Source: Candidatus Nomurabacteria bacterium (lineage in GTDB: Bacteria > Patescibacteriota > Minisyncoccia > Phycocordibacterales > UBA918). Taken from it: 64,000 nucleotides of DNA. Positions 2,109-49,690 of the stretch are shown in pieces. Where the stretch lies: the NCBI GenBank assembly GCA_020632135.1, contig JACKGC010000001.1, positions 581,124 to 645,123 on the forward strand. Direction: 5' to 3'. The first letter of the stretch is position 1. The number at the start of each line of letters is the position of its first letter. Made by a program: the position numbers and the translations under genes. The notes beneath the pieces were generated by a model, which was not told the origin of the DNA, did no database searches, and worked only from the letters and a program-made list of their open reading frames with translations.

Positions 2109-2304
2109 TTACTGAAGCAGAGTGCATTTTGTGCGACGATACAACTAAGGATAAAAGACACCCCCTGCGGTGACTTTTATCCTTATTTAGAGCCACACAA
2201 TAATATTTGGTTATACACAGTACGAGCTCCGTTAACGCTTCTGCGGGTGCTGAAATTGCTATACTTAATAGGTATTAATCAATACACGCAACATTATAAT
2301 TATT

Positions 2305-3009: not shown

Positions 3010-3030
3010 GGTAATCTGTAGTCATCAGCT

Positions 3031-4089
3031 ATGACTACTGGAGTTCGAACACTTACCGTTGCGTGTCTCTCAATATTGCTCGCTACACCTCTCTCTGGAG
3101 AGGTGTTTGCGCAGCAAAATTCGAACGAAATAACTTCAACCACCTCTGCCACTACGACTGAAAGTGTGTTAGCGGTCGAGCCAGAGGCTGAGTCTGAGCT
3201 ATGGTACAAGTCTGAACGAATCTTTGGCCGGATCGATGCCGGGGACTTTGTGGTTGGCCCTGGTCGGACTGAGATCGAAGTGGCTCCAGGTGAGACAGTC
3301 ATTCAGGAAGTGACAGTAACCAACCGTATCAGCGGCGATCGCTCATTTTTGCTAGAGGTCGAGGATATTACTGGTAGTCGCGATGGTAGTAGTGCAGTGA
3401 GTTTGATGGGTGCCGAGCGTGGCCCGTACAGTATTAAAGACTATATCTCATTCCCTGAGACTGAATTGAATTTGGACCTTGGTGAGCGTGCTCGTATCCC
3501 CGTCATTATTACCGTACCACCAGATGCGGAGCCAGGCGGCTACTATGGTAGCGTGCTGGTCTCTACCATTCGGACCAATGAAGATGGTGCGGCGGCAGCA
3601 CCTCGTTCACCGATCATTGCGCGCGTTGGGTCGCTGTTCTTCCTGCGTGTGCTCGGCGATGCGGTCACCGAGGGACGCACCCAATCCATCAGTGTGCTCG
3701 GGGATAAATGGTGGCATGAATCTGGCCCGATCGAGTTGGGTATTTTATATGAGAACACCGGTTCCATCCATGTGAACCCATACGGTGAGCTTTCGATCAC
3801 TAACATGTTTGGTGAAGAGGTCGGTTTTGTTGAGTTGGAGCCGTGGTTTGTACTGCCAAATTCGCTTCGTGTCCGGGAGGTTGTGTGGGACCGAGAGTTC
3901 CTGCTTGGTCGGTATGAGGTGACTGCACGCATCAACCGAGGCTACGATGACATTGTGGATGAGGTGACGGTAGCGTTCTGGGTCTTGCCCTGGAAGATCG
4001 TCGGGGGATTGTTCTTAGGTCTGTTCATTATTATTTTCGGTATAAGAGCATTTTTCCGCACGTTTGAATTTAAGCGGAAAGGTGCGTAA
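3031..4089 (+). CDS. Surface protein with signal peptide and C-terminal membrane anchor (DUF916/DUF3324-like layout)
   Basis: N-terminal signal-like LTVACLSILLATPLSGEVFAQ. C-terminal TM GGLFLGLFIIIFGI followed by a basic tail RAFFRTFEFKRKGA. Two beta-rich halves. Sits between the two paralogous small proteins. Confidence 0.65.
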   Translation: MTTGVRTLTVACLSILLATPLSGEVFAQQNSNEITSTTSATTTESVLAVEPEAESELWYKSERIFGRIDAGDFVVGPGRTEIEVAPGETVIQEVTVTNRISGDRSFLLEVEDITGSRDGSSAVSLMGAERGPYSIKDYISFPETELNLDLGERARIPVIITVPPDAEPGGYYGSVLVSTIRTNEDGAAAAPRSPIIARVGSLFFLRVLGDAVTEGRTQSISVLGDKWWHESGPIELGILYENTGSIHVNPYGELSITNMFGEEVGFVELEPWFVLPNSLRVREVVWDREFLLGRYEVTARINRGYDDIVDEVTVAFWVLPWKIVGGLFLGLFIIIFGIRAFFRTFEFKRKGA

Positions 4090-4091
4090 TT

Positions 4092-4859
4092 ATGCGATTA
4101 TCGGTCCTTGCGAGTTCACTTTTTCAGTCTCTGACCATCACCGTTTTGGTAGTGTCTGTGATCAACGTAAGTTTGGCTCAGGTGCGCACCAGTACTAACT
4201 ACCAGTTACAAAGCGATAGTATCAATGTTGGTGGGGGCTATTCCTCATCAACCCTGTATCAGCAGGAGAGTACGGTGGGCGAGATCGCTACTGGTCCGGC
4301 AGACAGTACGAGTTATGCGTTACGCGCTGGCTACCAACAGATGCAAGAGGTGTACGTAAGTCTCACAACGACCGGCAATGTGATCATGTCACCAGACCTG
4401 CCTGGACTCACTGGCGGTACCTCAAATGGTTCGAGCACCTTCACGGTTATTACTGATAGTCCTTCGGGGTACAGACTCACGATCGAGGCTGAGAATGATC
4501 CAGCGATGCAAAGTGGTGGTAATACCATTGCTGATTATGACGAAGGGGTTGAAACTGACTATTCATTCATTACTGGTGGTAGTGATGCACATTTTGGGTA
4601 CACACCGGAAGGGGATGATATCGTACAAGCGTTTAAGGATGATGGTGCGGGCACGTGTAATGTTGATGTGCAGGACTCGAGTTTGGCATGCTGGGCTGGC
4701 CTTTCTACCACCCCGGTGGTAATGGCTGAGGGTGTGGGGTCGAATCATCCAAATGGCGCCACCACTACCGTGCATTTTCGGGTTGGTATCGGAAGTGGGG
4801 CGGGAGTGATCGCTGGCGTGTATACTGCGACCACTACTGTGACCGCCTTACCGTTATAA
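4092..4859 (+). CDS. Small secreted protein, paralog of 2305..3009
   Basis: Signal peptide (LTITVLVVSVINVSLAQV). Same conserved blocks as 2305..3009. Starts 2 nt after the upstream stop. Confidence 0.65.
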   Translation: MRLSVLASSLFQSLTITVLVVSVINVSLAQVRTSTNYQLQSDSINVGGGYSSSTLYQQESTVGEIATGPADSTSYALRAGYQQMQEVYVSLTTTGNVIMSPDLPGLTGGTSNGSSTFTVITDSPSGYRLTIEAENDPAMQSGGNTIADYDEGVETDYSFITGGSDAHFGYTPEGDDIVQAFKDDGAGTCNVDVQDSSLACWAGLSTTPVVMAEGVGSNHPNGATTTVHFRVGIGSGAGVIAGVYTATTTVTALPL

Positions 4860-27616: not shown

Positions 27617-28648
27617 TTATCGCACGAAGTTCACATTTTGCATGAAGCTGTCATTGAGTGCATTCCGGTCAGTCGGTTCATCAATATGTACCGTGAAGGT
27701 GTGACCACTGCCTACTGCTTCTGGGAAACCAAGCGTGAGGATCGCACGCTCGTTTGGCTTCAGTGGTTGTTGGTCTGGTGAAGTGTACTCGTTCCCGCCA
27801 GGGAGGGTAATGATGTAGTTCCACTCCTTGGAGGTCTTGGTGCCGTAATTCTTGATCTCAAACTGGATTGCGCCAGCTTCACCAGAGACGATTCCGCCCG
27901 TAAAGAAAGTGTCGTTCACGATCGTGCCGGATGAGAGGTATCGTACACTGAGGTCGGTGCGACCATTTGGGTCTGAGGTCGGAACCGCAAAAGTGAAGGT
28001 TTGCTGATACGTCGTTGCTGGTGTATCTGGGTGTGCTGTGGTCGGGGTGGTTTCAGATGTGGAGTCACTCTCAGCTTCGTCAGTCGTGTCATCAGACTCG
28101 CTGGTTGCCAAGAGGTTTTGTATATCGGTATTGATTATGGTGAGAGAGGCGATACCGCTTGCTCGTGGCTCGGTGTCATTGGTAGCCAAGAAAGAAACGG
28201 TATAGCGAAGATCAGCATAGCGATCCTTTTCGGAATCCACAGTCAGCGTTACAGAGTCCACTCTACCAATGTTGTAGTTGGTCTCACAGGCGATACTCTG
28301 CAGACCGTCGACGTTCACGAGGTCAACGGCAATGCCGTCTGCACACTGGTACGCAAAGGTGTAGCTACCAGCTTTACTGGCCGTGTCCCACATGACCGTG
28401 ACAGTCTCGCCGTTATTGATAAGGGTTCGGTCACTCGAAACATTAAGTGTAGCGACCTTAGTCCCAGTTTGCTCCACCCGGTCTTGGTTGATGCTTTGCG
28501 CAAGCGACGCAAGGGAAGAAAATGCGCTTGGAACGATATGTACCAACTGCACTGACAGCCACGCGATGATGATAATGATACCAATAAAACCTGCCACCGC
28601 GAGTGTCTTAAGGACTGAGTCCTTCTTCTTTTCTGACACGTTATTCAT
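27617..28648 (-). CDS. Hypothetical N-terminally anchored extracellular protein
   Basis: Start at ATG 28648 (MNNVSEKKK). TM LAVAGFIGIIIIIAWLSV. Two beta-rich modules separated by an acidic Thr/Ser/Asp linker. Confidence 0.55.
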   Translation of the reverse strand: MNNVSEKKKDSVLKTLAVAGFIGIIIIIAWLSVQLVHIVPSAFSSLASLAQSINQDRVEQTGTKVATLNVSSDRTLINNGETVTVMWDTASKAGSYTFAYQCADGIAVDLVNVDGLQSIACETNYNIGRVDSVTLTVDSEKDRYADLRYTVSFLATNDTEPRASGIASLTIINTDIQNLLATSESDDTTDEAESDSTSETTPTTAHPDTPATTYQQTFTFAVPTSDPNGRTDLSVRYLSSGTIVNDTFFTGGIVSGEAGAIQFEIKNYGTKTSKEWNYIITLPGGNEYTSPDQQPLKPNERAILTLGFPEAVGSGHTFTVHIDEPTDRNALNDSFMQNVNFVR

Positions 28649-28807
28649 AGTGAGCGACAAACTACCACGATCATTACAAATTGTCAATGTACAAGGGGCG
28701 ACAATTTTCGTAGTCTGCAACAGGATAGGGTACAGAAAAGGGAAATGTTGACTTTAAATAATAAAAGTGTTATAATTTAAAAACTAGCAAAAGTCGCTAC
28801 TATTTTT

Positions 28808-29527
28808 ATGGAGGAGATCATGAATCGCATTTGGCAGCAGAAAGGTGTATTTTTGGGCACGTTCTTTGTTGTATTCACATTATCGTATATTGTCTTGCTG
28901 GCACTAGATTTCTTGCCTGAACCACCAAACGAGACTCCGATGGCGGTACAGGAGACGGTTGATACGCCGGTGGTAATTGATGATCTTGAAGAGGATGTCG
29001 CGGTGATTGCGGCAGATACAGCGGATGTGCCGGTATTAGTGGCACACACTGAGGCTGAGGTGTCTGACGCATCGATTCCAGCCGTCGGCGAGCTGCCGGT
29101 TCAATTATCGATCCCAAAACTCAATAAAACTGTAGCGGTACTCAATCCTGCCTCACGAACAATCACTGATCTTGATGCGGCACTGTTGGATGGTGTGGTG
29201 CGTCATCCTGATTCCGCAACATTGTCACAAACAGGTAACGTGTTCATTCTGGGCCACTCCAGTTATTTGCCGACCGTGTTCAACCGCAATTTCCAAGCGT
29301 TCAACGGCATCCAGAATCTGGCTTGGGGCGACACTATCGAGGTCACTTCAGACACAGCGGTCTACGTATACCGTGTTGAGAAGGTATACCGCGCTCGTGC
29401 GCAAGATGTGACTGTGCCGATTGCGAACACTGGCAAAATGCTGACCTTGGCTACTTGCAATAGTTTTGGCAGTGTTGATGACCGTTACATCGTTGAGGCC
29501 AAACAGATTGCCGTCAAAAGGCAATAG
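28808..29527 (+). CDS. Sortase-family transpeptidase
   Basis: N-terminal TM, catalytic His context FILGHSSY, TLATCNS (TLxTC) Cys motif, and a downstream Arg (DDRYIVEA). Confidence 0.8.
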   Translation: MEEIMNRIWQQKGVFLGTFFVVFTLSYIVLLALDFLPEPPNETPMAVQETVDTPVVIDDLEEDVAVIAADTADVPVLVAHTEAEVSDASIPAVGELPVQLSIPKLNKTVAVLNPASRTITDLDAALLDGVVRHPDSATLSQTGNVFILGHSSYLPTVFNRNFQAFNGIQNLAWGDTIEVTSDTAVYVYRVEKVYRARAQDVTVPIANTGKMLTLATCNSFGSVDDRYIVEAKQIAVKRQ

Positions 29528-29530
29528 GAC

Positions 29531-29559
29531 TTGACATTATAAATTTTGTGGCATAATAT
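29531..29559 (+). promoter_or_regulatory. Sigma70-like promoter for the giant adhesin gene
   Basis: TTGACA, 17-nt spacer, TAATAT, 112 nt upstream of the ATG at 29672. Confidence 0.5.
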
Positions 29560-29671: not shown

Positions 29672-32600
29672 ATGGATTTTATGAATAACAAATTTACTAT
29701 GAACAAGAAATTCAAAGCTATTGCTGGAGCAGTGGTACTTTTTGCGATGGTAATCTCTACCGTTGTACCACCCGTAACCACAGTTGTTGCCTTCACACAG
29801 CTTAACTCTGATCTGGGTTCGGGCTTTGGGCTTGATACCAATTTTGGGCTGAACCCATCATTTGACCTCAATACTGATACTGATCTTGATCTTGATCTTG
29901 ACCTCGATACCGACCTTGGTCTTGATACCGATCTCGAATTGGATACCGATCTTGGTCTGGATGATGATTTTGGTCTTGATACTAACTTCTCATCAGATAA
30001 CTCTGCCAGCGGCAGTAGCAATGAGCCGAACACGGTTGTGTCTACAGGCAATCATGATTTTATTGAATGTGCGCTTGGTGCCAGCAAGGAGTTGGTGCGA
30101 GTCGGTGACAATGTCAAGCTCGACTGGAGCGCGAAGGGATTTGATAACATCAAGATCAACGGACATCAACACTCTGGAGAAGCTGGTTCTATGACCGTAA
30201 AGGATCTGCGTGAGAGCACACTCTTTACCCTCGAGGCAGTGAGTGACAGTGGTTCTACGTGTACCCAGAAGGTGTTTGTGACCTGTCTGCCTCCTGAAGA
30301 ACCTCCCAAGGAAGAAGAGCCAAAGGAATGTGAGCTTGACCTGACCAAATCGGTCAATAAGACTTCAGCTATCCCTGGCGACGTGCTTACCTACACCATC
30401 ACTATTAAGAACACGGGAGACGCTGATTGTACCGGCGGCGGGGTTCGCATTAAGGATGTTGTCGATAGCAACATCACCTATAAGAGCCATCAGATCTCGA
30501 GTAATCTCACAGCGGGTTACGGCAGTCTGCCAGTGTATACTAGTGCCGACCGCACGCTCCATTTCAATGGAAATACCTTGAATCCCGGTGAGTCTGGCAC
30601 TATTACCTGGAAGGGTGAAGTGACTGCGCCAACCCAGTGCGGCGATTTTGAGGTTCGTAATCAAGCAAAGGCAACCGCCAAAGAGCTCAATAATTTCCAG
30701 ACGTGGGTTTACAGCGAGACAGTAAAAACTCAAGTTGACAATGATTGTCCACCAACCGGCTCATGTGAACTTAAGGTTGAAAAGTCAGTTGATAAGGCAG
30801 TCGCAACGCCAGGTGATGAGCTCGCCTACACCATTAAGGTGACCAACGTTGGTGATGAAGATTGTACCGGTAGTGGTGTGCTGATCGAGGATGTGGTTGA
30901 TGATAAGTTGACCTATCTCCGACACACGGTAACTAGTAACTTTGGTGCAGGATATCCAGGAAAAGCAGTATATACTTCTGCAAATCGCACTCTGCATTTC
31001 AACGGTAATGAACTTACCCCGGGTGAGTCTGGCACGATCGTGTGGTGGGGCAAAGTTGCTAATCCAACTCAGTGCGGCGACTTTGAAGTGACCAACCAGG
31101 CCAAGGCTACTGCGCTTGAGCTCGATAACTTTATGAGCTGGGCATACAGTCCAGTGGTGCGTACCACTATTGATAATGACTGTGCGCTTGCGCCAGTGTG
31201 TACACTGACCCCAAGTCACCAGGTGGTAGAGTATGGTGGTATTGCCAGTCTTAACTGGACCACGGAGAATGTCACTGACGTGACCTTGAGTTACTTCGGT
31301 ACCGTTGGTCAAAACGGTGCGGTCAATCATGGCCCGCTCTATACCAACACTTCATATGTACTGACCGCGATCGGTGCGGGTGGTCAGGTGACCTGTACTG
31401 CCGACGTAGAAGTAGGTGAGCCAGCAGATGAATACGCAACGGTAGTGGCGCACAAGATCGTGTGTACTGATGAAGCTGAGTTGCCAAACTATGGTACCGG
31501 CGGACCAAACATCACTGTCAACACGGCAACGGACTGGGTGGCTGCTCACGCCAGCTGTAGCTTCGCGTCTGGTTGGGAATTCGAATGGACTGATAATCAG
31601 TCGAATGATCCGGGTGACACCTTGACCGGCAAGGCGGGTGCTCCTTGGAACGCCTTTGGGCCAACTGGTGCGAATGGTAAGACAGAGACCAGTATAAATT
31701 TGACCGATCTTGCTAATGACAAAGTGTGGTTCCGTGAAGTATTGCAACCAGATTACATTCCATTTACCCATGGCCTCAACGGCGGCACGAACGTTGATGC
31801 GGTGTCAGCAGAATTCTACTGTGATACAGATGTGATCAACTACGATAACCGCGATTATATCGACGGTATGGTAGCTGACCAGACCTACTATTGTGTGGCG
31901 TGGAATGCACACACACCAGAAACGCCTGCGCCAAGTTGTGATGCATTCACTGCGTCACCGAATGCGGTGATGAGTGGCAATAGCGTCACGCTAACCTGGG
32001 AGACCACAAATGCGGTACAAGTATTTTTGAACAATGGCATTGGTGCGGTCGCGGCTGATGGTTCACTCTCAGTGACACCACTAGCAGATGTAACCTACCA
32101 ACTGACCGTGATCGGCGCAGAAGATCAGACCGATACCTGTAGTGTGCCGGTAACAGTCTCAGAAGATCCGGTGCCAGTATGTGTCGACTTTAGCGCCACT
32201 CCAAGCACGCTTGCAGTTGGTGGTGGTAGTGTCGTGCTTGATTGGGAAGTGACTGACGCGACCGATGTGACCATTGCGCCGACCGTGGGTACGGTTGGAC
32301 TCGTGGGCTCGCGTTCAGTTTCAGTGACTGAATCAACGACCTTTACACTTACGGCAGTTGATGCAACAGGCGATGAAGTGAGCTGTGTGGCACCAGTGAC
32401 CGTGCCTGACCCAGAAGCGCCACTGACCTGTGCTGATAATGTTGCTTTCACTGCGACCGATTACTCAATTTCACGAGGTGATGATAGTACGCTCAACTGG
32501 AGCACGACTGATGTGGATTCAGTTTCTATTAGTGTGATCGATGCGACCTCGCTTAATGGCAGTCGCTCAGTGTCTCCATCTAGTGATACAACCTATGTAC

Positions 32601-33922
32601 TGACTGCAACACGTGGCGATGAGTCAGTAGAGTGTCCGATCTCGATCGATGTTTCTTCTGGTGGCGGTGGCGGCGGAAGCGTATCGCCACGTTGTGAGCT
32701 TGATATATCAGACACCCGTATTTCACGTGGTGATGAGATTACACTTGAGTGGGACACTTCAAACGCAACTGAAGTAACGCTGACTGATGATCGTGGCAAA
32801 ATCATCTTCACCACTGATGATTACCTATCGTCTGATAAGAAGCGGTACTACGATGGCGAAATCACTCTAAAACCAACTCGTGATACTGAGTACACCTTGC
32901 TCGCTGAGCGTGGTACGCGTGACCGTGAGTGTACCGTGAAGGTGCGGGTAGAGGATGATGTGGTGGTAATTCAGACGCGTGACCAACAGCCACTGGTGGC
33001 CGGTATCTCACTGAGTCAGGTGCCATACACTGGCTTTGAGGCAGGACCGATCTTGACCACGCTATTCTACATGCTGCTTATTGGCTGGTCGATGTACATC
33101 ACCTACTTGCTCGTGATCCGTAACCGTTCTGGTGTGTCAGGTAATGGTGCACTTACTCTCTTTACACCAAGTGAAACGACTCCGGCTCCAGAGCCAAAGA
33201 TCATTGATGAGAAAGTATCTATGGCTGCAACTACTCCAGTGGTGTCTGCGGTACAGACTGAGGCTGCACCGATGAATCTTCCAACGGGCGCACCGGTGAT
33301 CGGTTACGCGAGCCTTGATACTGAAGTGGAAGACGTTGTAGAGGTCAGCGACCAGGAGGTGACCGATCTTGAGAATCGTGCACATGCACAAAAAGCGCTC
33401 CTTTCAAGCGATGCGATCCGTTACTTTATGAGTAGTACCGAAGCAGCAGCGCGTACTGCAGAACTCGACACATTGATCGCTGAAGCAAAGAAGCACTATC
33501 CACTTGAAGACGGCTGGATCGTGATCAATGAGGCGCGTATGAAGAACCTGTGTGATGCCTGTGATATTACTTCGGTAGCATCCATGACTGAACCGTATAT
33601 TCCGACAGTGGTCCCGGATGGTACTGGCTCACTTGCTGAAGCGATTGTGACCGGGAACGTGGTAGCGGCCTACGAGATGATCGGAAATCGTCCGATGTTT
33701 GCTCTCGCAGACGCTGCGGCTGACCTCGATGCGGTATATCGTAATCGACGTGGCGGTAGCGCGACCGTGTCAGACATGTTGACTGCCGAGACCGCAAAAT
33801 TCTCTGATGAGCAGATCAAGAATATGATCACTGCACTCACTGGTGCACTTGACGGTACGTATACCGACGAAGCGTCAGCAGTGAAAATGGCGATCATGAA
33901 GGCGGTGAAGGAGGTGGCGTAA
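29672..33922 (+). CDS. Giant modular surface protein (1416 aa)
   Basis: Signal peptide; acidic D/L repeat; two 140-aa DUF11-like repeats (LTKSVNKTSAIPGD..YTITIKNTGDADCTG); six Cys-bracketed Ig-like modules of about 75 aa. VPYTG plus TM plus RNR at aa 1117-1155, then a tail of about 260 aa. Confidence 0.85.
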   Translation: MDFMNNKFTMNKKFKAIAGAVVLFAMVISTVVPPVTTVVAFTQLNSDLGSGFGLDTNFGLNPSFDLNTDTDLDLDLDLDTDLGLDTDLELDTDLGLDDDFGLDTNFSSDNSASGSSNEPNTVVSTGNHDFIECALGASKELVRVGDNVKLDWSAKGFDNIKINGHQHSGEAGSMTVKDLRESTLFTLEAVSDSGSTCTQKVFVTCLPPEEPPKEEEPKECELDLTKSVNKTSAIPGDVLTYTITIKNTGDADCTGGGVRIKDVVDSNITYKSHQISSNLTAGYGSLPVYTSADRTLHFNGNTLNPGESGTITWKGEVTAPTQCGDFEVRNQAKATAKELNNFQTWVYSETVKTQVDNDCPPTGSCELKVEKSVDKAVATPGDELAYTIKVTNVGDEDCTGSGVLIEDVVDDKLTYLRHTVTSNFGAGYPGKAVYTSANRTLHFNGNELTPGESGTIVWWGKVANPTQCGDFEVTNQAKATALELDNFMSWAYSPVVRTTIDNDCALAPVCTLTPSHQVVEYGGIASLNWTTENVTDVTLSYFGTVGQNGAVNHGPLYTNTSYVLTAIGAGGQVTCTADVEVGEPADEYATVVAHKIVCTDEAELPNYGTGGPNITVNTATDWVAAHASCSFASGWEFEWTDNQSNDPGDTLTGKAGAPWNAFGPTGANGKTETSINLTDLANDKVWFREVLQPDYIPFTHGLNGGTNVDAVSAEFYCDTDVINYDNRDYIDGMVADQTYYCVAWNAHTPETPAPSCDAFTASPNAVMSGNSVTLTWETTNAVQVFLNNGIGAVAADGSLSVTPLADVTYQLTVIGAEDQTDTCSVPVTVSEDPVPVCVDFSATPSTLAVGGGSVVLDWEVTDATDVTIAPTVGTVGLVGSRSVSVTESTTFTLTAVDATGDEVSCVAPVTVPDPEAPLTCADNVAFTATDYSISRGDDSTLNWSTTDVDSVSISVIDATSLNGSRSVSPSSDTTYVLTATRGDESVECPISIDVSSGGGGGGSVSPRCELDISDTRISRGDEITLEWDTSNATEVTLTDDRGKIIFTTDDYLSSDKKRYYDGEITLKPTRDTEYTLLAERGTRDRECTVKVRVEDDVVVIQTRDQQPLVAGISLSQVPYTGFEAGPILTTLFYMLLIGWSMYITYLLVIRNRSGVSGNGALTLFTPSETTPAPEPKIIDEKVSMAATTPVVSAVQTEAAPMNLPTGAPVIGYASLDTEVEDVVEVSDQEVTDLENRAHAQKALLSSDAIRYFMSSTEAAARTAELDTLIAEAKKHYPLEDGWIVINEARMKNLCDACDITSVASMTEPYIPTVVPDGTGSLAEAIVTGNVVAAYEMIGNRPMFALADAAADLDAVYRNRRGGSATVSDMLTAETAKFSDEQIKNMITALTGALDGTYTDEASAVKMAIMKAVKEVA
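29831..29989 (+). repeat. Coding low-complexity tandem repeat (Asp-Leu/Thr-Asp)
   Basis: Encodes LDTNFGLNPSFDLNTDTDLDLDLDLDTDLGLDTDLELDTDLGLDDDFGLDTNF. The nucleotide units are GATCTTGAT/GATACCGAT variants. Confidence 0.9.
30329..31183 (+). repeat. Two tandem 420-nt coding repeats (DUF11-like domains)
   Basis: Units 30329..30748 and 30764..31183, each running from a Cys (CELDLTK / CELKVEK) to (V/I)DNDC, colinear throughout (e.g. CGDFEV(R/T)NQAKATA). Confidence 0.85.
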
Positions 33923-43786: not shown

Positions 43787-44689
43787 ATGGCAAATCGACA
43801 TCTTTCGCGCAGTATCGTTCTTCAGTCACTCTTTGAGTGGGATTTAAACGCGCTTGAGAAAAAAGCAGTGCAAGAAGTATTGGAGCGCAACGTCACCGAA
43901 TTTGCGCCAAACAAGACCGATCTGCCATTTATGGAAAAACTCCTCGATGGTGTCATGGCTAAGCAGCCTGAGCTTGACCTTATCATTGAAAAAGCGGCCC
44001 CCGAGTGGCCGATCGATCGTATCTCTCCAGTCGATCGTAACATCCTGCGTCTAGGTCTCTATGAGCTTTTGTTTGCGGATCGCGGTGAGGTCCCGGCTAA
44101 AGTGGCTATTAATGAGGCGATCGAATTGGCGAAGCAATTTGGTGGCGACAACAGTAGCCGGTTCGTCAACGGCGTCTTAGGTGCAGTCTATAAAGAGATC
44201 GGCGAGCCGGGCAAGGACGAACAGAGTAAGCGTAAGAAACGAGATGTGCCATTTGATCAAATGCCAATCGAGCGACTAGCTGGTGCGGTGGTGTATGCAG
44301 AACACGAAGGACAGATGTACCTCGCGCTTGTGCACGATATCTTCGGACACTGGACGCTCTCTAAGAGTAAGGTGAAAGAAGAAGAAACACCCGAAGAAGG
44401 TGCGACTCGTGCGCTGCTGGAGGAAGTCGGACTTCCTGTTACGATTGAAACCGAGCTCGGTAATAACGAATATGTCGCTTCGCAGCCGGAGAAGGGCAAG
44501 GTGCGCAAGCAGGTCCACTATTTCTTGGCCCAAGCGCCGTACCAAGACATTGAGCTTCTGAAGAAAGGAGGCCTCGATGACGCCAAGTGGTTTAAGGTAG
44601 CCGACATTTTGGAGCTTAATTTTTATGAGGACATTCTCCCGATCGTTACCAAGGCGGTTACGGTATTGGTTGGCAGGAGCGGAAAATAG
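43787..44689 (+). CDS. nusB: NusB antitermination factor fused to a Nudix-fold domain
   Basis: Aa 1-140 are NusB-like (RSIVLQSLFEWDL, ILRLGLYELLF, AINEAIELAKQFGG..SSRFVNGVLG). Aa 165-290 carry a Nudix box variant, SKSKVKEEETPEEGATRALLEEVGL. Confidence 0.8.
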   Translation: MANRHLSRSIVLQSLFEWDLNALEKKAVQEVLERNVTEFAPNKTDLPFMEKLLDGVMAKQPELDLIIEKAAPEWPIDRISPVDRNILRLGLYELLFADRGEVPAKVAINEAIELAKQFGGDNSSRFVNGVLGAVYKEIGEPGKDEQSKRKKRDVPFDQMPIERLAGAVVYAEHEGQMYLALVHDIFGHWTLSKSKVKEEETPEEGATRALLEEVGLPVTIETELGNNEYVASQPEKGKVRKQVHYFLAQAPYQDIELLKKGGLDDAKWFKVADILELNFYEDILPIVTKAVTVLVGRSGK

Positions 44690-45482: not shown

Positions 45483-46193
45483 ATGAAACGACCACAGCAG
45501 AGCGGCTTCACGCTGGTTGAGATCTTGGTTGCTATTACGGTGGCACTCATCTTGGTTGGTGTGTTGGCGGCCAATTACTTTGATAGTCTCAAGGTGTCAC
45601 GGGACGCTAAACGCCAAGCTGATCTGCGTAATTTACAGGCGGCTATTGAGCTCTACAAGCTAGAGTACGGGAGGTATCCAGCGGGGTGTAATGGTGCTGG
45701 TGTCTGGTCGGGTCAACTGGGAACAGATTTTGAGTGCAATCACGCGGGTACCTATGCGGGATATGCCGGGACGGGTCAGTATATCGTCAAGCACGATCCG
45801 GCAGACTCGAGCATCCAGGACTTTGCCCCTGGGTTTATTCCAGTGCTGCCGGTTGACCCGAGGTTAAATGGTGATAATTCTGGGTACGTGTATCTGGCTA
45901 ATGCGGACGGCACGGTCTATAAGCTCGTAGCGTATCGGACAGTCGAGGAAATGAGTGTGGTCGATGGTTCTTCGGACCATATCGATGATGACCTCCGTGA
46001 CTTTAAGCTGTGTGAGACAGAGCACTGGTGGACCGCTGACACTTCCATGTTGTGTTACGACGATCTGCCTTGTTATTACACTCAATCATACTACCCAATC
46101 TCATATGCAGTATGGGGTGGTTATGCCGATATGCCGACCGCTGCTCAGGTCACTACATACACCGAGAATATCGTCTGCAGCATTCCAAACTAG
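45483..46193 (+). CDS. Type IV pilin-like protein (prepilin N-terminal methylation motif)
   Basis: MKRPQQSG/FTLVEILVAITVALILVGVLA, i.e. a class III signal G/FTL(V/I)E plus a hydrophobic helix. Confidence 0.8.
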   Translation: MKRPQQSGFTLVEILVAITVALILVGVLAANYFDSLKVSRDAKRQADLRNLQAAIELYKLEYGRYPAGCNGAGVWSGQLGTDFECNHAGTYAGYAGTGQYIVKHDPADSSIQDFAPGFIPVLPVDPRLNGDNSGYVYLANADGTVYKLVAYRTVEEMSVVDGSSDHIDDDLRDFKLCETEHWWTADTSMLCYDDLPCYYTQSYYPISYAVWGGYADMPTAAQVTTYTENIVCSIPN

Positions 46194-46242
46194 CTGTGTA
46201 CACGCCCATTATTAAGTCTGCTCAGGTGCTATCATAAAAAGT

Positions 46243-46806
46243 ATGTGGAAACAAACTAGCCAACGAGGCTTCACTCTGATCGAGATCATGGTAGTGATCA
46301 CGATCATTGGTATTCTAGCTGCTGCTGCTTTTGCTAATTTCAATGATGCGCGGAAACAGGCTCGGGACGCCCAACGAATCCAAGAGCTAAAGATGATCGC
46401 CGAGGCGTTTGAACTGATGTTGATCGATCATGGCGGAACGGTCGACTGTGGTGCTGGCGTTAAAATTGAAGGGGGGGTTGATGAGATCAATGTTGGTACA
46501 GGTGCTGCGACAAATTGCAATGATCTAGATTTGATCCAGGACACGATCTCTGACTATTTCCAACAGACACCACACGATCCACTGGGGCCGGGTGATGATC
46601 GCTACTTCTACTACTTCGACTATCATGGTTGTGGTGGTGGTGAACCAAATAAGTGGTTGGTGTATGGTGGTATGGAACTTGAGGGTAGCTCCAACCGTGA
46701 TCAGGTGTGTAGTGCTACTGGTAGTAACAATCAGGGTTACTATTTCGAAGATGGCTCAAGCAATGCTACATACCCCTACGTGATCTCAATTATGGAAGAG
46801 GATTAA
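46243..46806 (+). CDS. Type IV pilin-like protein
   Basis: QRG/FTLIEIMVVITIIGILAAAAF. Confidence 0.8.
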   Translation: MWKQTSQRGFTLIEIMVVITIIGILAAAAFANFNDARKQARDAQRIQELKMIAEAFELMLIDHGGTVDCGAGVKIEGGVDEINVGTGAATNCNDLDLIQDTISDYFQQTPHDPLGPGDDRYFYYFDYHGCGGGEPNKWLVYGGMELEGSSNRDQVCSATGSNNQGYYFEDGSSNATYPYVISIMEED

Positions 46807-46825
46807 CAATTTGTATTGACCCATC

Positions 46826-47440
46826 ATGATGACATTCTTCGCTAAGCACAAAACAGAAAAAGGTTTTTCTCTCATTGAATTACTGGTGGTGATAGCCATT
46901 ATTGGTATCTTGGCAACGATCCTGAGTGCAAACTTCAATAAATCAAAAGACAAAGCTACTAACAAAGCGCTGCGGAGTGAGTTGCGTGAGGTACAGCTCG
47001 CACTCGAGCTCTATAAAGCCCAGAATGGGGAGTACCCAGGCGTTCCTAACACAGCCTGTCGACAAACCGGAAGTGACTACCTCAGTGCAAGTAGTCGGGA
47101 TTGTGGTGTTATTGCCTACATTGGAGATGATTCAAATAATGACTTTATCCCTGAGTTCATCGGGTCGCTCCCCACGCATCAGGATTCACGCAATAGTAAT
47201 TGTGATATCGAATACATTGTGGCTGATGACGCCAGCTGGTACAAACTCACTGCGATCCGGTGTCTAGCCGGGGTGGACGATGAAGAAGATGATGATGCTA
47301 TACAGCCTGAGAATGAATTTGCGCGTTGTATCTATAACTCTCCATTGTCGGACTGTAGTCACTGCGATTCAGGGTATGTTGCTGACGCTGATTTTTATGA
47401 GTCTGTCGCGGTGTACAGTGTTGGTGGTCAGTGTCGATAG
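46826..47440 (+). CDS. Type IV pilin-like protein
   Basis: EKG/FSLIELLVVIAIIGILATIL, with several Cys in the C-terminal globular part. Confidence 0.8.
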   Translation: MMTFFAKHKTEKGFSLIELLVVIAIIGILATILSANFNKSKDKATNKALRSELREVQLALELYKAQNGEYPGVPNTACRQTGSDYLSASSRDCGVIAYIGDDSNNDFIPEFIGSLPTHQDSRNSNCDIEYIVADDASWYKLTAIRCLAGVDDEEDDDAIQPENEFARCIYNSPLSDCSHCDSGYVADADFYESVAVYSVGGQCR

Positions 47441-47446
47441 TAGTGT

Positions 47447-49690
47447 ATGTACCTCAAAGAGCTCACGATCAACGGTTTCAAATCGTTCGCTAAAAAGAGC
47501 GAATTGGAGTTTTCTGCAGCTATTACTGCGATCGTGGGTCCAAACGGATCAGGGAAGAGCAACATTGCCGAGTCATTTCGGTTTGTGCTCGGGGAACAGT
47601 CGGTGAAGTCGATGCGTGGCAAGAAGGGCGAGGACCTTATTTGGGGCGGCTCGGAAAAGGTCTCGCGTGGTAACCGCGCGAGTGTGGAGGTGGTGTTTGA
47701 TAATAAAGGACGGACGTTTGCGCTCGATTTTGACGAAGTCAAAATCGAGCGCATTGTGCACCGCGACGGGCAAAATGAGTACAAACTCAATGATTCCACG
47801 GTGCGCCTGAAGGATGTGCATGAGCTCTTGGCAAACGCCAACATCGGCTCGACTGGCCACCATATCATTTCCCAGGGTGAGGCTGATCGCGTACTGGCGG
47901 CGGGGCCGAAAGAGCGACGTGAGATGATCGAAGACGCGCTGGGGCTAAAGGTGTACCAACTTAAAAAGCAAGAAACTGAACGTAAGCTAGAAAAAACCCA
48001 CGAAAACATCGCACAGGTGGGGTCGCTCCGTCGTGAAGCAGCCCCGCATTTAAAATACTTACAGAAGCAGGTTGAGAAGGCTGAGCGCTCGCTGGAGGTG
48101 CAACAGGAACTGCGCACCAAATACGCGGAGTACCTGAAGCGTGAAGATACGTACGTGGCGAAGCGACATGACCAACTCGAAGCAGGGCGCCGTGAGCCAG
48201 CAGCCCAACTTGAAGCAGTGGCGGTTCGGCTCGAACGGGTGAAGACGTTGTTGGTAGAGTCAGAAGAAAAACCTGATACAACCGAACGTCTGGATGCTGA
48301 AGCAGCCCATAAAACTGCAGCGAAAGCCCGACAAGAGCTAGAGCGCGAGTGTAGCAGGCTTGAAGGACAGATTTCATTTTTGCAAAATCGTATTTCGACG
48401 CCACAGGTTGTTGTCAGTGGCGGTACGGTCATTGACCGAAGTCAGCTTGAGTCGCTCGTGGCTGACATTGAGCAAGCGTCTGAGAAAGCGTTGAGTAAAG
48501 GTGGCGAGCCAGTATTGGAGCGAGCACTGCGAGACTTGCTCCATCAGCTACGCACTTTCCTCAAGCGTGAGCAGGGTGAAGTGATCGACACGACAATCGC
48601 TGATAAAGAAGAGCTTGCAGCGCTTGAGGACAGTGTTGCGTCATTGCAGTCGGCGCTTGAAGATGCGCGGCAATCTGAAGCCAAGACTCAAGCTGCACTT
48701 GATGCGATCCGCACAGCGCACGTGGCAGATACTGAAAAGAATCGAGAAGCCGAGCGTGAGATGTTCGCACTTATGAATGAGCGCCGGGAGCTTGAGAGCC
48801 AGCTTGATGCGATCGACCGTGAGCTTACGGTGCTCGAACGTGACCGCACTGACTTTAAGCAGCAGCTGCAGGAGGCGGTCTCGCTCCTGGGGCGCGGCGC
48901 GAGCGACTACTACTCTTTTGAGATACTAGACGATACTGGAGCGGTGGTGAGTGATGACGCGATCGCGGCAGAAGATCGCGCCGCGCAACGAACTCGAGCG
49001 CACGAACTCGAGAAGTTAAAAATTCGTCTGGAAGAGCTTGGGGTAGGGGCAACCGAAGATTTGCTGAAAGAATACACTGACGCAAAGGAGCGTGATGAAT
49101 TCTTAGCTCGAGAGCTAACCGACCTTGAGGCATCGGTAGAAAACCTCAAGTCGCTGATCGTCGATATGGAAGAAAAACTCCACGAACAATTCAGTGTCGG
49201 GGTAGAAAAGATCACGAAGGAATTTCACACTTTCTTCACGCTCATGTTTGGCGGCGGCTCAGCGTCACTTGAGCGAGTAAAGCTCAAGCAGCGCAGTGAA
49301 GATGAAGAAGAAGGAGGAGAAGAAGTTGCAACACAGGAGGGTGTCGAGCTTACTGTGGCGCTACCAAATAAGCGTGTGAAGGGGCTTGAGATGCTTTCTG
49401 GTGGCGAACGTGCACTCACTTCAATTGCGCTTATTTTTGCAATGAGTCAGGTCAATCCACCGCCATTCATTATTCTTGATGAGACTGATGCCGCACTTGA
49501 TGAGGCTAATAGCCGGCGCTATGGCGATATGATCGAAGCGTTGGCGAAGCGTTCGCAGCTGGTGCTTATCACGCACAATCGCGAGACCATGAGCCGCGCG
49601 GGGATCCTTTACGGCATTACCATGGGCGGCGATGGGGTGTCAAAGGTGTTATCGGTAAAGTTTGATGAGGCAGCAGCGGTAGCGAAGTAG
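47447..49690 (+). CDS. smc: SMC-family ATPase, short form without a recognisable hinge domain
   Basis: N-terminal head FKSF...GPNGSGKSNI. C-terminal head LSGGERALTSIALIFA...FIILDETDAALDEAN. Only about 430 aa of coiled coil between them, with a short break at about aa 330-345. Confidence 0.8.
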   Translation: MYLKELTINGFKSFAKKSELEFSAAITAIVGPNGSGKSNIAESFRFVLGEQSVKSMRGKKGEDLIWGGSEKVSRGNRASVEVVFDNKGRTFALDFDEVKIERIVHRDGQNEYKLNDSTVRLKDVHELLANANIGSTGHHIISQGEADRVLAAGPKERREMIEDALGLKVYQLKKQETERKLEKTHENIAQVGSLRREAAPHLKYLQKQVEKAERSLEVQQELRTKYAEYLKREDTYVAKRHDQLEAGRREPAAQLEAVAVRLERVKTLLVESEEKPDTTERLDAEAAHKTAAKARQELERECSRLEGQISFLQNRISTPQVVVSGGTVIDRSQLESLVADIEQASEKALSKGGEPVLERALRDLLHQLRTFLKREQGEVIDTTIADKEELAALEDSVASLQSALEDARQSEAKTQAALDAIRTAHVADTEKNREAEREMFALMNERRELESQLDAIDRELTVLERDRTDFKQQLQEAVSLLGRGASDYYSFEILDDTGAVVSDDAIAAEDRAAQRTRAHELEKLKIRLEELGVGATEDLLKEYTDAKERDEFLARELTDLEASVENLKSLIVDMEEKLHEQFSVGVEKITKEFHTFFTLMFGGGSASLERVKLKQRSEDEEEGGEEVATQEGVELTVALPNKRVKGLEMLSGGERALTSIALIFAMSQVNPPPFIILDETDAALDEANSRRYGDMIEALAKRSQLVLITHNRETMSRAGILYGITMGGDGVSKVLSVKFDEAAAVAK

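What the first reader, a model, noticed from the sequence alone, without database searches (positions are those of the whole stretch)
33020..33922. Sortase-type sorting signal (VPYTG + TM + RNR) sits about 300 aa before the C-terminus
At aa 1117-1155 the adhesin has LSQ-VPYTG-FEAGPILTTLFYMLLIGWSMYITYLLVI-RNRSG. This is the tripartite build of a cell-wall sorting signal: an xPxTG motif, a hydrophobic helix and a basic stop-transfer. Canonical signals end the protein, but here about 260 further residues follow. They start with a Pro/Thr/Ala-rich linker and continue as a predicted helical, cytoplasm-side domain (…AQKALLSSDAIRYFMSS…IKNMITALTGALDG…).

If sortase cleaves at T/G, the cell would release or anchor an ectodomain of about 1100 aa and keep a membrane-tethered cytoplasmic fragment of about 300 aa. 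That is a potential cleavage-coupled signalling or assembly device. The motif also departs from LPxTG (V for L, Y at position x).
Basis: partly seen in the sequence, partly recalled or inferred. Interest (0 to 1): 0.6.

Follow-up and report, generated by a model that had tools for sequence, protein, structure and literature searches.

The report
Sortase signal followed by cytoplasmic domain
A giant surface protein of an uncultured Patescibacteria (CPR) bacterium, encoded beside its own sortase gene, carries a near-invariant sortase-type anchoring signal that sits about 300 residues before the protein's end and is followed by a conserved intracellular domain, an arrangement I could not find described for any sortase substrate.

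Summary
ORF 29672-33922 (+, 1416 aa) contains VPYTG (aa 1117-1121, nt 33020-33034), FEAGP, a 23-residue TM helix, RNR, then 264 more residues.

It is not a fusion artefact. About 70 of 80 species-representative genomes of Paceibacteria/Kaiserbacteria-type Patescibacteria have the same single ORF.

A sortase gene lies directly upstream in the window (28808-29527) and in all 74 loci with enough upstream DNA.

The motif block is the best conserved part of the protein (85% identity). P, T and G are invariant, while positions 1 and 3 drift (VPYTG, IPYTG, LPYTG, LPQTG, IPETG), as in LPxTG signals.

In two species the adhesin frame stops exactly after the basic residues, which makes a canonical terminal signal. 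The tail continues in the -1 frame from an A_AAA_AAG run.

The tail is predicted cytoplasmic and well folded (pLDDT above 90). It always ends the protein and has no sequence family. It weakly resembles clamp-loader domains II-III.

The tail also occurs without any ectodomain, as a 2-TM protein next to the sortase.

Best reading: a dedicated sortase substrate fused to a sortase-linked TM plus cytoplasmic module. Cleavage and tail function are inferred, not shown. Novelty: new variant of a known kind.

The parts
27617..28720 (-). Divergently transcribed 367-aa membrane protein (N-terminal TM, Thr/Asp/Ser-rich linker, no family hit). A conserved neighbour of the sortase.
   Evidence: ORF. No Pfam or NCBIfam family. 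A homolog sits at the same position and strand in 69 of 86 loci.
28808..29527 (+). Sortase, 239 aa, with an N-terminal membrane anchor. Carries His (FILGHSSY), Cys (TLATC) and Arg (DDRYIVEA) motifs. Does not reach the cut-off of any defined sortase class.
   Evidence: Pfam PF04203, E 2.4e-21. NCBIfam class D/E models score 46-50 bits against cut-offs of 140-165. A homolog lies upstream on the same strand in 74 loci, which is every locus with enough upstream DNA, and the H/C/R motifs are present throughout. A promoter-like site (11/12 match) lies at 28748-28776.
29672..33922 (+). The whole gene, 1416 aa: signal peptide, variable multi-domain ectodomain, sorting signal, TM, linker and cytoplasmic tail.
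   Evidence: The same single stop-free ORF is found in about 70 of 80 species-representative loci.
29672..29794 (+). N-terminal Sec-type signal peptide / hydrophobic leader (MDFMNNKFTMNKKFKAIAGAVVLFAMVISTVVPPVTTVVAF).
   Evidence: Read directly from the translation. No dedicated predictor was run.
30317..31141 (+). Two DUF11 / B_ant-type Ig-like repeats in the variable distal ectodomain.
   Evidence: Pfam PF01345, E 6.9e-20. DUF7927 (Pfam) and TIGR01451 (NCBIfam) also match. The distal ectodomain aligns in only 12-58% of homologs.
32687..32977 (+). Conserved membrane-proximal Ig-like domain (PRCELDISD...VRVEDDVVVIQT).
   Evidence: Aligned in 99% of 62 fused homologs at 58% identity. Also present in short relatives.
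32978..33049 (+). Conserved recognition block RDQQPLVAGISLSQ-VPYTG-FEAGP. The pentapeptide VPYTG is at 33020-33034. The predicted sortase cut lies between T1120 and G1121.
   Evidence: Logo from 78 sequences. This block is 85% identical across 62 homologs, the highest of any region. Variants are VPYTG, IPYTG, LPYTG, TPYTG, IPHTG, VPHTG, LPQTG and IPETG, with P, T and G fixed.
33050..33118 (+). Transmembrane helix ILTTLFYMLLIGWSMYITYLLVI.
   Evidence: AlphaFold helix with pLDDT 94-96. 51% identity across homologs, with conserved FY..LL and Y positions that are shared with the ectodomain-less class C proteins.
33119..33127 (+). Basic stop-transfer residues RNR.
   Evidence: An R/K-rich stretch directly follows the TM in essentially all 78 homologs.
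33128..33349 (+). Disordered Pro/Thr/Ala-rich cytoplasmic linker. It contains a conserved linear motif P-x-N-L-P-T-G-x-P-V-x-G-Y at 33269-33307.
   Evidence: pLDDT 47-57. 35% identity overall, but the motif Pro is conserved in at least 90% of sequences. The consensus PxNLPxxxxVxGY is found in all three architectures.
33350..33919 (+). Conserved cytoplasmic tail domain, aa 1227-1416. Two helical lobes, aa 1227-1296 and 1321-1415, joined by a variable loop.
   Evidence: pLDDT above 90. 64% identity across homologs. 502 cluster representatives match at E<=1e-3, always at the extreme C-terminus. No Pfam, NCBIfam or PDB sequence hit. The best fold matches are clamp-loader delta/gamma domains II-III.

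Best explanation
The gene encodes a Sec-exported, fast-evolving multi-Ig surface protein that is the dedicated substrate of the sortase encoded just upstream.

Proposed steps:
1. The ectodomain is translocated. The TM helix and basic residues stop transfer, so the last roughly 265 residues stay and fold in the cytoplasm.
2. The sortase recognises the juxtamembrane block ISL[ST]Q-VPYTG-FEAGP and cuts between T1120 and G1121.
3. The sortase transfers the roughly 1080-residue ectodomain to the cell wall (or another acceptor).
4. A 296-residue single-pass remnant stays in the membrane: G-FEAGP, the TM, the linker and the two-lobed helical domain.

This remnant is not waste. The TM plus tail is an autonomous, strongly conserved module genetically tied to the sortase. 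It also occurs as a 2-TM protein without any ectodomain, or encoded or recoded separately from the adhesin. So the window gene is best seen as a sortase substrate fused to a sortase-associated membrane/cytoplasmic partner, whose TM doubles as the sorting-signal TM.

Shown:
- Gene integrity.
- Motif conservation.
- Sortase linkage.
- The modularity of the tail.

Inferred:
- Topology.
- Cleavage.
- The acceptor.

I commit, at low confidence, to one role for the tail: an organising or docking module that presents the precursor to its sortase and persists afterwards. Its collar-like fold suggests it may oligomerise.
For: (1) One intact ORF in the window. The same fused ORF occurs in 62 complete, 5 contig-truncated and 2-3 further loci out of 80 species representatives. 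In 105 of 130 newly returned 50%-identity cluster representatives, the motif is followed by at least 250 residues.

(2) A sortase is adjacent in the window and in 74/74 informative loci, with His/Cys/Arg motifs retained.

(3) The motif block is the most conserved segment at 85% identity, against 64% for the tail, 51% for the TM and 35-58% for the ectodomain. P, T and G are invariant, while position 1 (V/I/L/T) and position 3 (Y/H/Q/E) drift. The variants include LPQTG, LPYTG and IPETG. This is the degeneracy pattern of LPxTG signals (my knowledge of the family).

(4) Natural boundary experiment. In L077 and L080 (two species, also seen in an independent assembly, L002) the adhesin frame ends '...VPYTGFEAGP-TM-VIKKKVS*'. 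That is a canonical terminal sorting signal.

(5) The motif and the ectodomain are lost together. Class C proteins (L068, L075, L076 and about 20 protein clusters) keep the TM and tail next to an intact sortase but have neither an ectodomain nor xPxTG. P0055 keeps VPYTG with an ectodomain of only about 25 residues.

(6) Topology. There is an N-terminal hydrophobic leader, acidic residues before the TM and basic residues after it. Separately encoded tails have no signal peptide or TM.

(7) The tail is confidently folded and always ends the protein.

(8) Precedent that a post-sortase membrane remnant can be functional. The S. gordonii C-peptide is sensed by a two-component kinase, as summarised in PMC11326707.
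Against: - No biochemical evidence of cleavage exists for this or any related protein. I found no literature on VPYTG or on sortase substrates in this clade.
- The defining 'short charged tail that ends the protein' is not met in the window.
- NCBIfam's LPXTG-anchor model does not match.
- Residues after the scissile site (FEAGP) and in the TM are far more conserved than in classical sorting signals. This could instead point to a structural juxtamembrane or protein-interaction element.
- Class C genomes keep the sortase beside a motif-less TM-tail protein. So sortase adjacency does not by itself prove a substrate relationship.
- The sortase belongs to no characterised class, so its specificity is unknown.
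- Whole genomes could not be scanned for other substrates.
Confidence: 0.6

Rival explanations
1. Uncleaved type-I membrane adhesin. The protein stays intact, anchored by its TM helix. VPYTGFEAGP is a conserved juxtamembrane structural or docking element, for example for the neighbouring membrane proteins. The cytoplasmic domain links the adhesin to something inside the cell, integrin-like. The sortase acts on other proteins.
For: - Conservation extends well beyond the pentapeptide, from RDQQPLVAGISL upstream to FEAGP and the TM residues downstream. This is unusual for sorting signals.
- The tail violates the 'signal ends the protein' rule.
- Class C shows that sortase and TM-tail are linked without any motif.
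- The LPXTG-anchor model gives no hit.
Against: - P, T and G are invariant while positions 1 and 3 drift to LPQTG/IPETG. This is what sortase recognition predicts, not what a generic structural turn predicts.
- The motif is lost exactly when the ectodomain is lost.
- In L077/L080 the adhesin frame stops where a canonical signal stops.
- No other candidate substrate lies near the sortase in about 1.4 Mb of related loci.
Confidence: 0.2
2. Cleavage-coupled signalling device, Notch/RIP-like. Sortase cleavage, possibly followed by intramembrane proteolysis, changes the state of the cytoplasmic domain or releases it. That domain then reports adhesin deployment or host contact to a cytoplasmic target.
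For: - The architecture fits: ectodomain, cleavage site, TM, then a conserved cytoplasmic domain.
- There is precedent that sortase remnants are sensed (PMC11326707).
- A conserved linear motif in the linker (PxNLPTG..V.GY) could be a docking site.
Against: - The tail also works when encoded separately or without any ectodomain (classes B and C). Its function therefore does not depend on being released from an adhesin.
- The tail has no recognisable DNA-binding, kinase or anti-sigma feature.
- No site-2 protease or regulator is conserved in the neighbourhood, which consists of housekeeping genes.
Confidence: 0.12
3. Assembly, annotation or pseudogene artefact: two separate genes (an adhesin and a cytoplasmic protein) wrongly joined in this window.
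For: Split versions do exist in relatives: L077/L080, L082-84, L005 and L079.
Against: - The window ORF is uninterrupted and has no homopolymer at the junction.
- About 70 of 80 independent species-level genomes and 105 cluster representatives show the same fusion.
- The splits are the exceptions. They sit at A8-9 or T runs and look like frameshifts or recoding of a fused ancestor.
Confidence: 0.02
4. The tail is a true clamp-loader (delta/tau-like) derivative that tethers a replication or DNA-handling complex to the membrane, with the adhesin fused to it.
For: - Clamp-loader subunits are the top Foldseek hits in two independent libraries: 3zh9 at E 1.5e-3, prob 1.0, over 213 columns; 1jr3_D; 8gj1_B; and phage delta-like and gamma/tau proteins.
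- The locus lies between gyrB and dnaE/rnhB.
Against: - E-values are marginal, TM-scores are 0.3-0.4 and rmsd is 10-14 A.
- There is no sequence-level signal against Pfam or PDB.
- The ATPase / clamp-binding domain I is absent.
- The neighbouring replication genes are simply conserved housekeeping synteny.
Confidence: 0.05

Closest known systems
LPXTG-type cell-wall sorting signals of Gram-positive sortase substrates
   Same: - An N-terminal export signal.
- A juxtamembrane xPxTG pentapeptide with invariant P, T and G.
- An immediately following hydrophobic helix of about 23 residues, then basic residues.
- A sortase with His/Cys/Arg encoded in the genome, here adjacent.
   Different: - The signal is not terminal. 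About 264 residues follow it, a disordered linker plus a folded 190-residue domain.
- The motif is VPYTG rather than LPxTG.
- The flanks (ISLxQ upstream, FEAGP downstream) and the TM residues are unusually conserved.
- The curated LPXTG-anchor model does not match.
Dedicated one-sortase/one-target gene pairs (e.g. the 'marine'/class GN sortase TIGR03784 with its adjacent target; from my knowledge of NCBIfam/TIGRFAMs descriptions)
   Same: - A sortase and a single obvious substrate are encoded side by side and conserved as a pair across a lineage.
- The pair uses a lineage-specific variant motif.
   Different: - The sortase scores only 26 bits against TIGR03784, whose cut-off is 158.
- The host is Patescibacteria, with a Gram-positive-like envelope.
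- The target carries a large cytoplasmic extension.
Sortase 'C-peptide' remnant sensing in Streptococcus gordonii (SGO_1180 two-component system; as summarised in PMC11326707)
   Same: The membrane-embedded fragment left after sortase cleavage has a biological role of its own.
   Different: - There the remnant is the bare TM plus a short tail of about 30 residues, sensed in trans by a kinase.
- Here the remnant would itself carry a conserved 190-residue folded domain.
- No kinase is linked to the locus.
Clamp-loader subunits delta / gamma-tau / delta' (domains II-III: AAA+ lid plus collar)
   Same: The two-lobed helical architecture of the tail gives clamp-loader subunits as the best fold matches in both PDB and BFVD.
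   Different: - No ATPase or clamp-binding domain I.
- No detectable sequence similarity.
- Marginal scores.
- Tethered to the membrane behind an adhesin.
dnaX-type -1 frameshifting / transcriptional slippage at A-runs (relevant to relatives L077 and L080, not to the window)
   Same: - An in-frame A_AAA_AAG heptamer, identical to the E. coli dnaX slippery site (my knowledge).
- It sits at the exact junction between a short product and a long product.
   Different: - Here the unshifted frame gives the short product and the shifted frame gives the long one.
- No stimulatory element was demonstrated.
- It has not been shown experimentally.

Membership tests
Sortase substrate with cell-wall sorting signal (CWSS) | N-terminal Sec signal peptide | tested here: met
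   The translation begins MDFMNNKFTMNKKFKAIAGAVVLFAMVISTVVPP... (basic n-region followed by a hydrophobic core). Checked by inspection only; no dedicated predictor was available.
Sortase substrate with cell-wall sorting signal (CWSS) | xPxTG-type pentapeptide with conserved P, T and G | tested here: met
   VPYTG at aa 1117-1121. P, T and G are 78/78 across loci. In 105 cluster representatives the variants are V/I/L/T-P-Y/H/Q/E-T-G.
Sortase substrate with cell-wall sorting signal (CWSS) | Hydrophobic membrane-spanning segment directly after the motif, followed by basic residues | tested here: met
   Five-residue spacer FEAGP, a 23-residue hydrophobic helix (AlphaFold pLDDT 94-96), then RNR. R/K follow the TM in the homologs.
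Sortase substrate with cell-wall sorting signal (CWSS) | The signal is at the extreme C-terminus (a short charged tail ends the protein) | tested here: not met
   264 residues follow RNR in the window. The median across 67-70 fused homologs is 293 residues after the G. The feature is met only by the zero-frame products of L077/L080, which end VIKKKVS*.
Sortase substrate with cell-wall sorting signal (CWSS) | Match to the curated LPXTG-anchor sequence model | tested here: not met
   The NCBIfam scan of the whole protein and of the C-terminal 300 aa returned only TIGR01451 (DUF11 repeat). There was no LPXTG-anchor hit at E<=0.1.
Sortase substrate with cell-wall sorting signal (CWSS) | Cognate sortase present | tested here: met
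   Adjacent gene 28808-29527, Pfam Sortase E 2.4e-21. Conserved upstream in 74/74 informative loci, with H/C/R motifs.
Sortase substrate with cell-wall sorting signal (CWSS) | Cleavage between T and G and covalent attachment to peptidoglycan | not testable with these tools
   Requires biochemistry or (meta)proteomics.
Defined sortase classes A-F / GN (for the neighbouring enzyme) | Score above the curated class-specific cut-off | tested here: not met
   Best scores: class D 49-50 bits (cut-offs 140-165), class E 46.7 (160), class GN 26 (158), class C 21.9 (160). Even the generic TIGR01076 model scores 29.8 against 39.35. Only the Pfam sortase domain passes.
Clamp-loader subunit (delta/gamma/delta') for the tail | Fold of domains II (AAA+ lid) and III (collar) | tested here: inconclusive
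   Clamp-loader subunits are the top Foldseek hits in PDB and BFVD, but with E 1.5e-3 to 0.4, TM 0.3-0.5 and rmsd 3-14 A.
Clamp-loader subunit (delta/gamma/delta') for the tail | Sequence-family membership (Pfam DNA_pol3_delta / gamma3 etc.) and an N-terminal RecA-like domain I | tested here: not met
   No such Pfam hit in any of 93 members, even at E<=10. No PDB sequence hit. The tail begins after a disordered linker and has no domain I.
Programmed -1 frameshift / slippage site (relatives L077 and L080 only) | In-frame X_XXY_YYZ heptamer at the junction, with selection on the downstream -1 frame in the absence of a start codon | tested here: met
   ATA AAA AAA AAG GTT TCT TAG is conserved in two species. 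In L077 there is no ATG/GTG/TTG for 34 codons in the -1 frame, yet there are 17 synonymous against 7 non-synonymous codon differences relative to L080. Actual frameshifting is not testable here.

The most novel reading that the evidence does not exclude
Sortase processing is used here as a switch rather than only as an anchoring step. Cutting at VPYT|G uncouples a host-binding ectodomain from a membrane-tethered, clamp-loader-like cytoplasmic module. That module partners with the sortase. Its state, fused or free, reports or controls adhesin deployment in these episymbiotic, minimal-genome bacteria. In some lineages the fused/unfused ratio is set by frameshifting or slippage at an A_AAA_AAG site placed exactly at the end of the sorting signal. 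This would be a new class of bipartite 'sorted receptor' specific to Patescibacteria.
Probability: 0.12. Interest if true: 0.85.

Novelty: new variant of a known kind. Interest (0 to 1): 0.62.

Why it matters
- **Sortase rule.** Sortase signals are treated, in both algorithms and textbooks, as strictly C-terminal. Here a whole bacterial class (Paceibacteria-type Patescibacteria; 502 cluster representatives) places a sortase-type signal internally, in front of a conserved folded cytoplasmic domain. If cleavage is confirmed, it shows that sortase substrates can be bipartite, and that the post-cleavage remnant can be a real protein with its own function.
- **Surface biology of the clade.** It also identifies what is probably the single dedicated, rapidly diversifying surface adhesin of these uncultured, likely host-dependent bacteria, together with its processing enzyme. 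That gives a concrete handle (the peptide ISLSQVPYTGFEAGP plus a 239-aa enzyme) for biochemical work on organisms that cannot be grown.
- **Annotation.** Practically, C-terminal-only sorting-signal predictors will miss this entire family.

Tried and rejected
- **Tail family searches.** Pfam and NCBIfam on the tail, alone and for all 93 alignment members, gave no family. A profile search of PDB sequences gave only a chance-level OSCP hit at E 0.6.
- **Literature.** 'VPYTG', 'internal LPXTG' and sortase combined with Patescibacteria/CPR returned nothing relevant.
- **Fusion-artefact idea.** Rejected by comparative data.
- **Stand-alone soluble tail proteins.** I first took the many 180-290-aa hits (class B) as evidence for a free cytoplasmic protein. 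Inspection of five contexts showed that most are frameshift splits of a fused gene, or gene-caller starts. L005 has a 1-nt deletion in a T run inside the TM. L079 is a singleton. L082-84 and L077/L080 sit at A runs. So this class is weaker evidence than it looked.
- **Other sortase substrates.** I scanned the window and about 1.4 Mb of related loci for other ORFs ending in xPxTG-TM-basic. Only the L077/L080 adhesins were found. Whole genomes could not be scanned.
- **holA/dnaX in the window.** I looked for these to weigh the clamp-loader resemblance. None is present among about 40 annotated ORFs.
- **Frameshift stimulator.** A downstream hairpin at the A9 sites was looked for. Only weak structures (-6 to -14 kcal/mol) turned up, with no shuffle control, so it is uninformative.


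Full report
**1. The observation**

The window has one uninterrupted ORF, 29672-33922 (+), of 1416 aa. Translation places the elements as follows:
- VPYTG at aa 1117-1121 (nt 33020-33034).
- FEAGP at aa 1122-1126.
- The hydrophobic stretch ILTTLFYMLLIGWSMYITYLLVI at aa 1127-1149.
- RNR at aa 1150-1152.
- 264 further residues before the stop.

Otherwise the description is correct. The N-terminus is a typical hydrophobic export leader. The ectodomain contains two DUF11/B_ant-type Ig-like repeats (Pfam PF01345, E 6.9e-20; NCBIfam TIGR01451). The last 300 residues match no Pfam or NCBIfam family.

**2. The surroundings**

The gene immediately upstream, 28808-29527 (+), is a sortase (Pfam PF04203, E 2.4e-21).
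- It has an N-terminal membrane anchor and the His (FILGHSSY), Cys (TLATC) and Arg (DDRYIVEA) motifs.
- It falls far below the curated cut-offs of every defined sortase class.

A 367-aa membrane protein without family assignment is transcribed divergently at 27617-28720 (-).

The module is embedded in housekeeping genes:
- Upstream: RF2, S2, EF-Ts, pheS, pheT and gyrB.
- Downstream: thrS, dnaE, rnhB, a nusB-NUDIX fusion, rnc, three pseudopilins, smc, RNase R, rpoB and rpoC.

Promoter-like sites precede both the sortase (28748-28776, 11/12 match) and the adhesin (29531-29559).

**3. Relatives**

A search with aa 1097-1416 returned 167 proteins, all from Patescibacteria labelled Kaiserbacteria, Paceibacterota or Parcubacteria.

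A profile of the tail alone found 502 cluster representatives (50% identity clusters) at E<=1e-3 and 157 at E<=1e-30. In all of the 150 best representatives that were listed, the domain lies at the extreme C-terminus.

Eighty species-representative genome loci were fetched and analysed by script.
- 62 complete and 5 contig-truncated loci, plus L078, L081 and the 3'-cut L073, carry one stop-free ORF with ectodomain, motif, TM and tail.
- The ectodomain is 360-1134 residues long (median about 696).
- The median number of residues after the G of the motif is 293.
- Of 130 newly returned cluster representatives, 105 (all of those at least 400 aa long) carry the motif with at least 250 residues after it.

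The fusion is therefore the normal state of this gene family. It is not an assembly artefact.

**4. Is the motif a sortase signal?**

Four independent comparative observations say it probably is.

*(a) Linkage.* A sortase homolog lies upstream on the same strand in 74 loci, which is every locus with enough upstream sequence. The catalytic motifs are intact in all of them.

*(b) Conservation.* The block RDQQPLVAGISL[ST]Q-VPYTG-FEAGP is the most conserved part of the protein. Figures:

| Region | Identity across 62 homologs |
|---|---|
| Motif block | 85% |
| Tail | 64% |
| TM | 51% |
| Linker | 35% |
| Distal ectodomain | alignable in only 12-58% of homologs |

In 78 distinct sequences P, T and G are invariant. 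Across more divergent representatives the pentapeptide reads VPYTG (84), IPYTG (9), LPYTG (5), TPYTG (2), IPHTG (2), VPHTG (1), LPQTG (1) and IPETG (1). P, T and G stay fixed while an aliphatic position 1 and position 3 are free to drift. That is the LPxTG pattern.

*(c) A natural boundary experiment.* In two species (L077 and L080; the same split is seen in an independent assembly, L002) the adhesin frame ends '...VPYTGFEAGP-TM-VIKKKVS*'. This is exactly where a canonical C-terminal sorting signal ends.

*(d) Co-loss.* Homologs that lack the ectodomain also lack the motif. These are class C: L068, L075, L076 and about 20 protein clusters. P0055, with an ectodomain of only about 25 residues, still has VPYTG.

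It is met only by proteins that have nothing to be sorted.

**5. The tail**

AlphaFold2 models built on 93- and 66-sequence alignments show the following:
- A confident TM helix at aa 1126-1155.
- A disordered linker at aa 1156-1226.
- A two-lobed, mostly helical domain at aa 1227-1296 and 1321-1415, with pLDDT above 90.

The charge distribution around the TM, and the absence of any signal peptide in separately encoded tails, place the tail in the cytoplasm.

Foldseek gives clamp-loader subunits as best hits in PDB:
- B. subtilis delta, 3zh9: E 1.5e-3, prob 1.0, 213 columns.
- E. coli delta: 1jr3_D and 1jqj_D.
- E. coli gamma/tau: 8gj1_B.

The first lobe also matches AAA+ lid-like domains (2v6z, 7pfo_A). 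In BFVD the best hits are phage 'Pol III delta-like C-terminal' and gamma/tau proteins, the latter with TMt 0.50 and rmsd 3.1 A over 108 columns.

The scores are marginal, and no sequence-level support exists. I therefore treat 'lid plus collar-like' as a lead, not an assignment.

The linker carries a conserved linear motif, P-x-N-L-P-(T/V)-G-x-x-V-x-G-Y (window 33269-33307). It is present in all architectures.

**6. The tail is an autonomous, sortase-linked module**

Class C loci have the sortase followed directly by a protein of about 325-360 aa. This protein has two TM helices and the tail, with no ectodomain and no xPxTG. Its second TM is homologous to the sorting-signal TM: the residues GP..LFY.LL......Y are shared.

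This level of TM conservation, and the persistence of the pair without a substrate relationship, suggest a direct partnership. The TM-tail may interact with the sortase or with the conserved divergent membrane protein. This step is inference.

**7. Split and recoded relatives**

Several 'stand-alone' tails turned out to be frameshift splits.
- L005 has a 1-nt deletion in a T run inside the TM.
- L079 is a singleton.

Two kinds of split are conserved across species, and both sit at A runs.
- L082, L083 and L084 break after the linker at G-AAA-AAA-AA. The tail ORF there starts at a conserved ATG.
- L077 and L080 break right after the TM at ATA AAA AAA AAG GTT TCT TAG. A_AAA_AAG is in frame, and the tail continues in the -1 frame.
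- In L077 that -1 frame has no ATG, GTG or TTG for 34 codons. Yet these codons differ from L080 by 17 synonymous against 7 non-synonymous changes.

This implies the -1 frame is translated, and so that ribosomal frameshifting or transcriptional slippage occurs. These lineages may therefore make both a canonical short adhesin and the long fused form. The window gene has no such run.

**8. Mechanism proposed**

The proposed sequence is:
1. Export of the ectodomain.
2. Stop-transfer at the TM and RNR.
3. Cytoplasmic folding of the tail.
4. Recognition of ISLSQ-VPYTG-FEAGP by the adjacent sortase.
5. Cleavage between T1120 and G1121, with transfer of the roughly 1080-residue ectodomain to the wall.
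6. Persistence of a 296-residue TM-tail remnant that is itself a conserved functional module.

Shown: gene integrity, conservation, linkage and modularity.
Inferred: topology, cleavage, acceptor and tail role.

There is precedent that a sortase remnant can matter. The S. gordonii C-peptide is sensed by a two-component kinase (PMC11326707).

Rivals are scored in the structured fields: an uncleaved type-I adhesin (0.2), a cleavage-coupled signalling device (0.12), a true clamp-loader derivative (0.05) and an artefact (0.02).

**9. Comparison and novelty**

The element works like an LPXTG sorting signal and meets four of its defining features. It fails the 'terminal' criterion and the curated sequence model. 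It should therefore be filed as a variant, not a member.

I found no description of VPYTG, of internal sortase signals, or of sortase substrates in this clade in the searchable literature.

Verdict: a real, strongly conserved, lineage-wide new variant of a known kind of system. The cytoplasmic module has unknown function.

Noticed in passing
L077:10157-10180 and L080:10157-10180 (relatives; also L001/L002): Candidate recoding site. The adhesin frame ends ATA AAA AAA AAG GTT TCT TAG (VIKKKVS*), and the tail continues in the -1 frame from an in-frame A_AAA_AAG heptamer. In L077 there is no start codon for 34 codons in that frame, yet substitutions relative to L080 are 17 synonymous against 7 non-synonymous. 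This suggests -1 frameshifting or transcriptional slippage yields both short and fused proteins.
   Followed up: partly
L082:1354-1400, L083:1454-1500, L084:4122-4170: A second conserved split in three species. The ORF breaks after the cytoplasmic linker at an A8-9 run (tail frame +1), and the tail ORF starts at a conserved ATG (IEMTELEN). Either a true split gene or slippage.
   Followed up: partly
L068:9196-10879, L075:8558-10263, L076:9268-10960 (and about 20 protein clusters such as P0046, P0054, P0063): Class C architecture. A sortase with intact catalytic motifs is followed directly by a 2-TM plus tail protein with no ectodomain and no xPxTG motif. What that sortase processes is unknown.
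   Followed up: partly
window 33269-33307: Conserved short linear motif P-x-N-L-P-T-G-x-P-V-x-G-Y inside the otherwise disordered cytoplasmic linker. It superficially resembles an LPxTG lacking one residue, but lies on the cytoplasmic side. It is present in fused, split and class C proteins and may be a docking peptide.
   Followed up: no
window 27617-28720 (-): A 367-aa membrane protein (N-terminal TM, acidic Thr/Ser-rich linker) with no family hit, divergently transcribed from the sortase. It is conserved at that position in 69 of 86 loci and is a possible third component of the module.
   Followed up: partly
window 29807-30061: Low-complexity Asp/Leu/Gly/Thr repeat (DLDLDLDTDLGLDTDLELDTDLGLDDDFGLDT...) just after the adhesin's signal peptide. 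Some relatives instead carry poly-Ser or (SSYYSQ)n repeats at the same place (L005, L001).
   Followed up: no
window 43787-44689 (+): A single 300-aa ORF combines a NusB domain (aa 7-136) with a NUDIX hydrolase domain (aa 165-282), an unusual fusion. In relative L005 a NUDIX gene lies in the same neighbourhood.
   Followed up: no
window 45483-47440 (+): Three consecutive small genes with N-terminal prepilin methylation motifs (PF07963), pseudopilin or minor-pilin candidates. They lie directly upstream of smc (47447-49690) and an SLT-domain protein.
   Followed up: no
window 69-4859 (+): Four consecutive ORFs (679, 234, 352 and 255 aa) with no Pfam family at E<=1e-3, followed by a 534-aa protein with a weak fn3 hit. 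Possibly another surface or unknown-function cluster.
   Followed up: no
P0055 (343 aa; contig of 2.9 kb): Minimal relative: a signal peptide, an ectodomain of about 25 residues, MSLEQ-VPYTG-LRVGS, the TM and the tail. An apparent intermediate between the full adhesin form and class C.
   Followed up: no
L001:6258-6707 and L077:8427-8882: In some relatives a small secreted Cys-rich 149-aa protein (containing ...CPEYTGW...) is inserted between the sortase and the adhesin. Several other loci have 1-4 kb of extra coding sequence there, which I did not examine.
   Followed up: no
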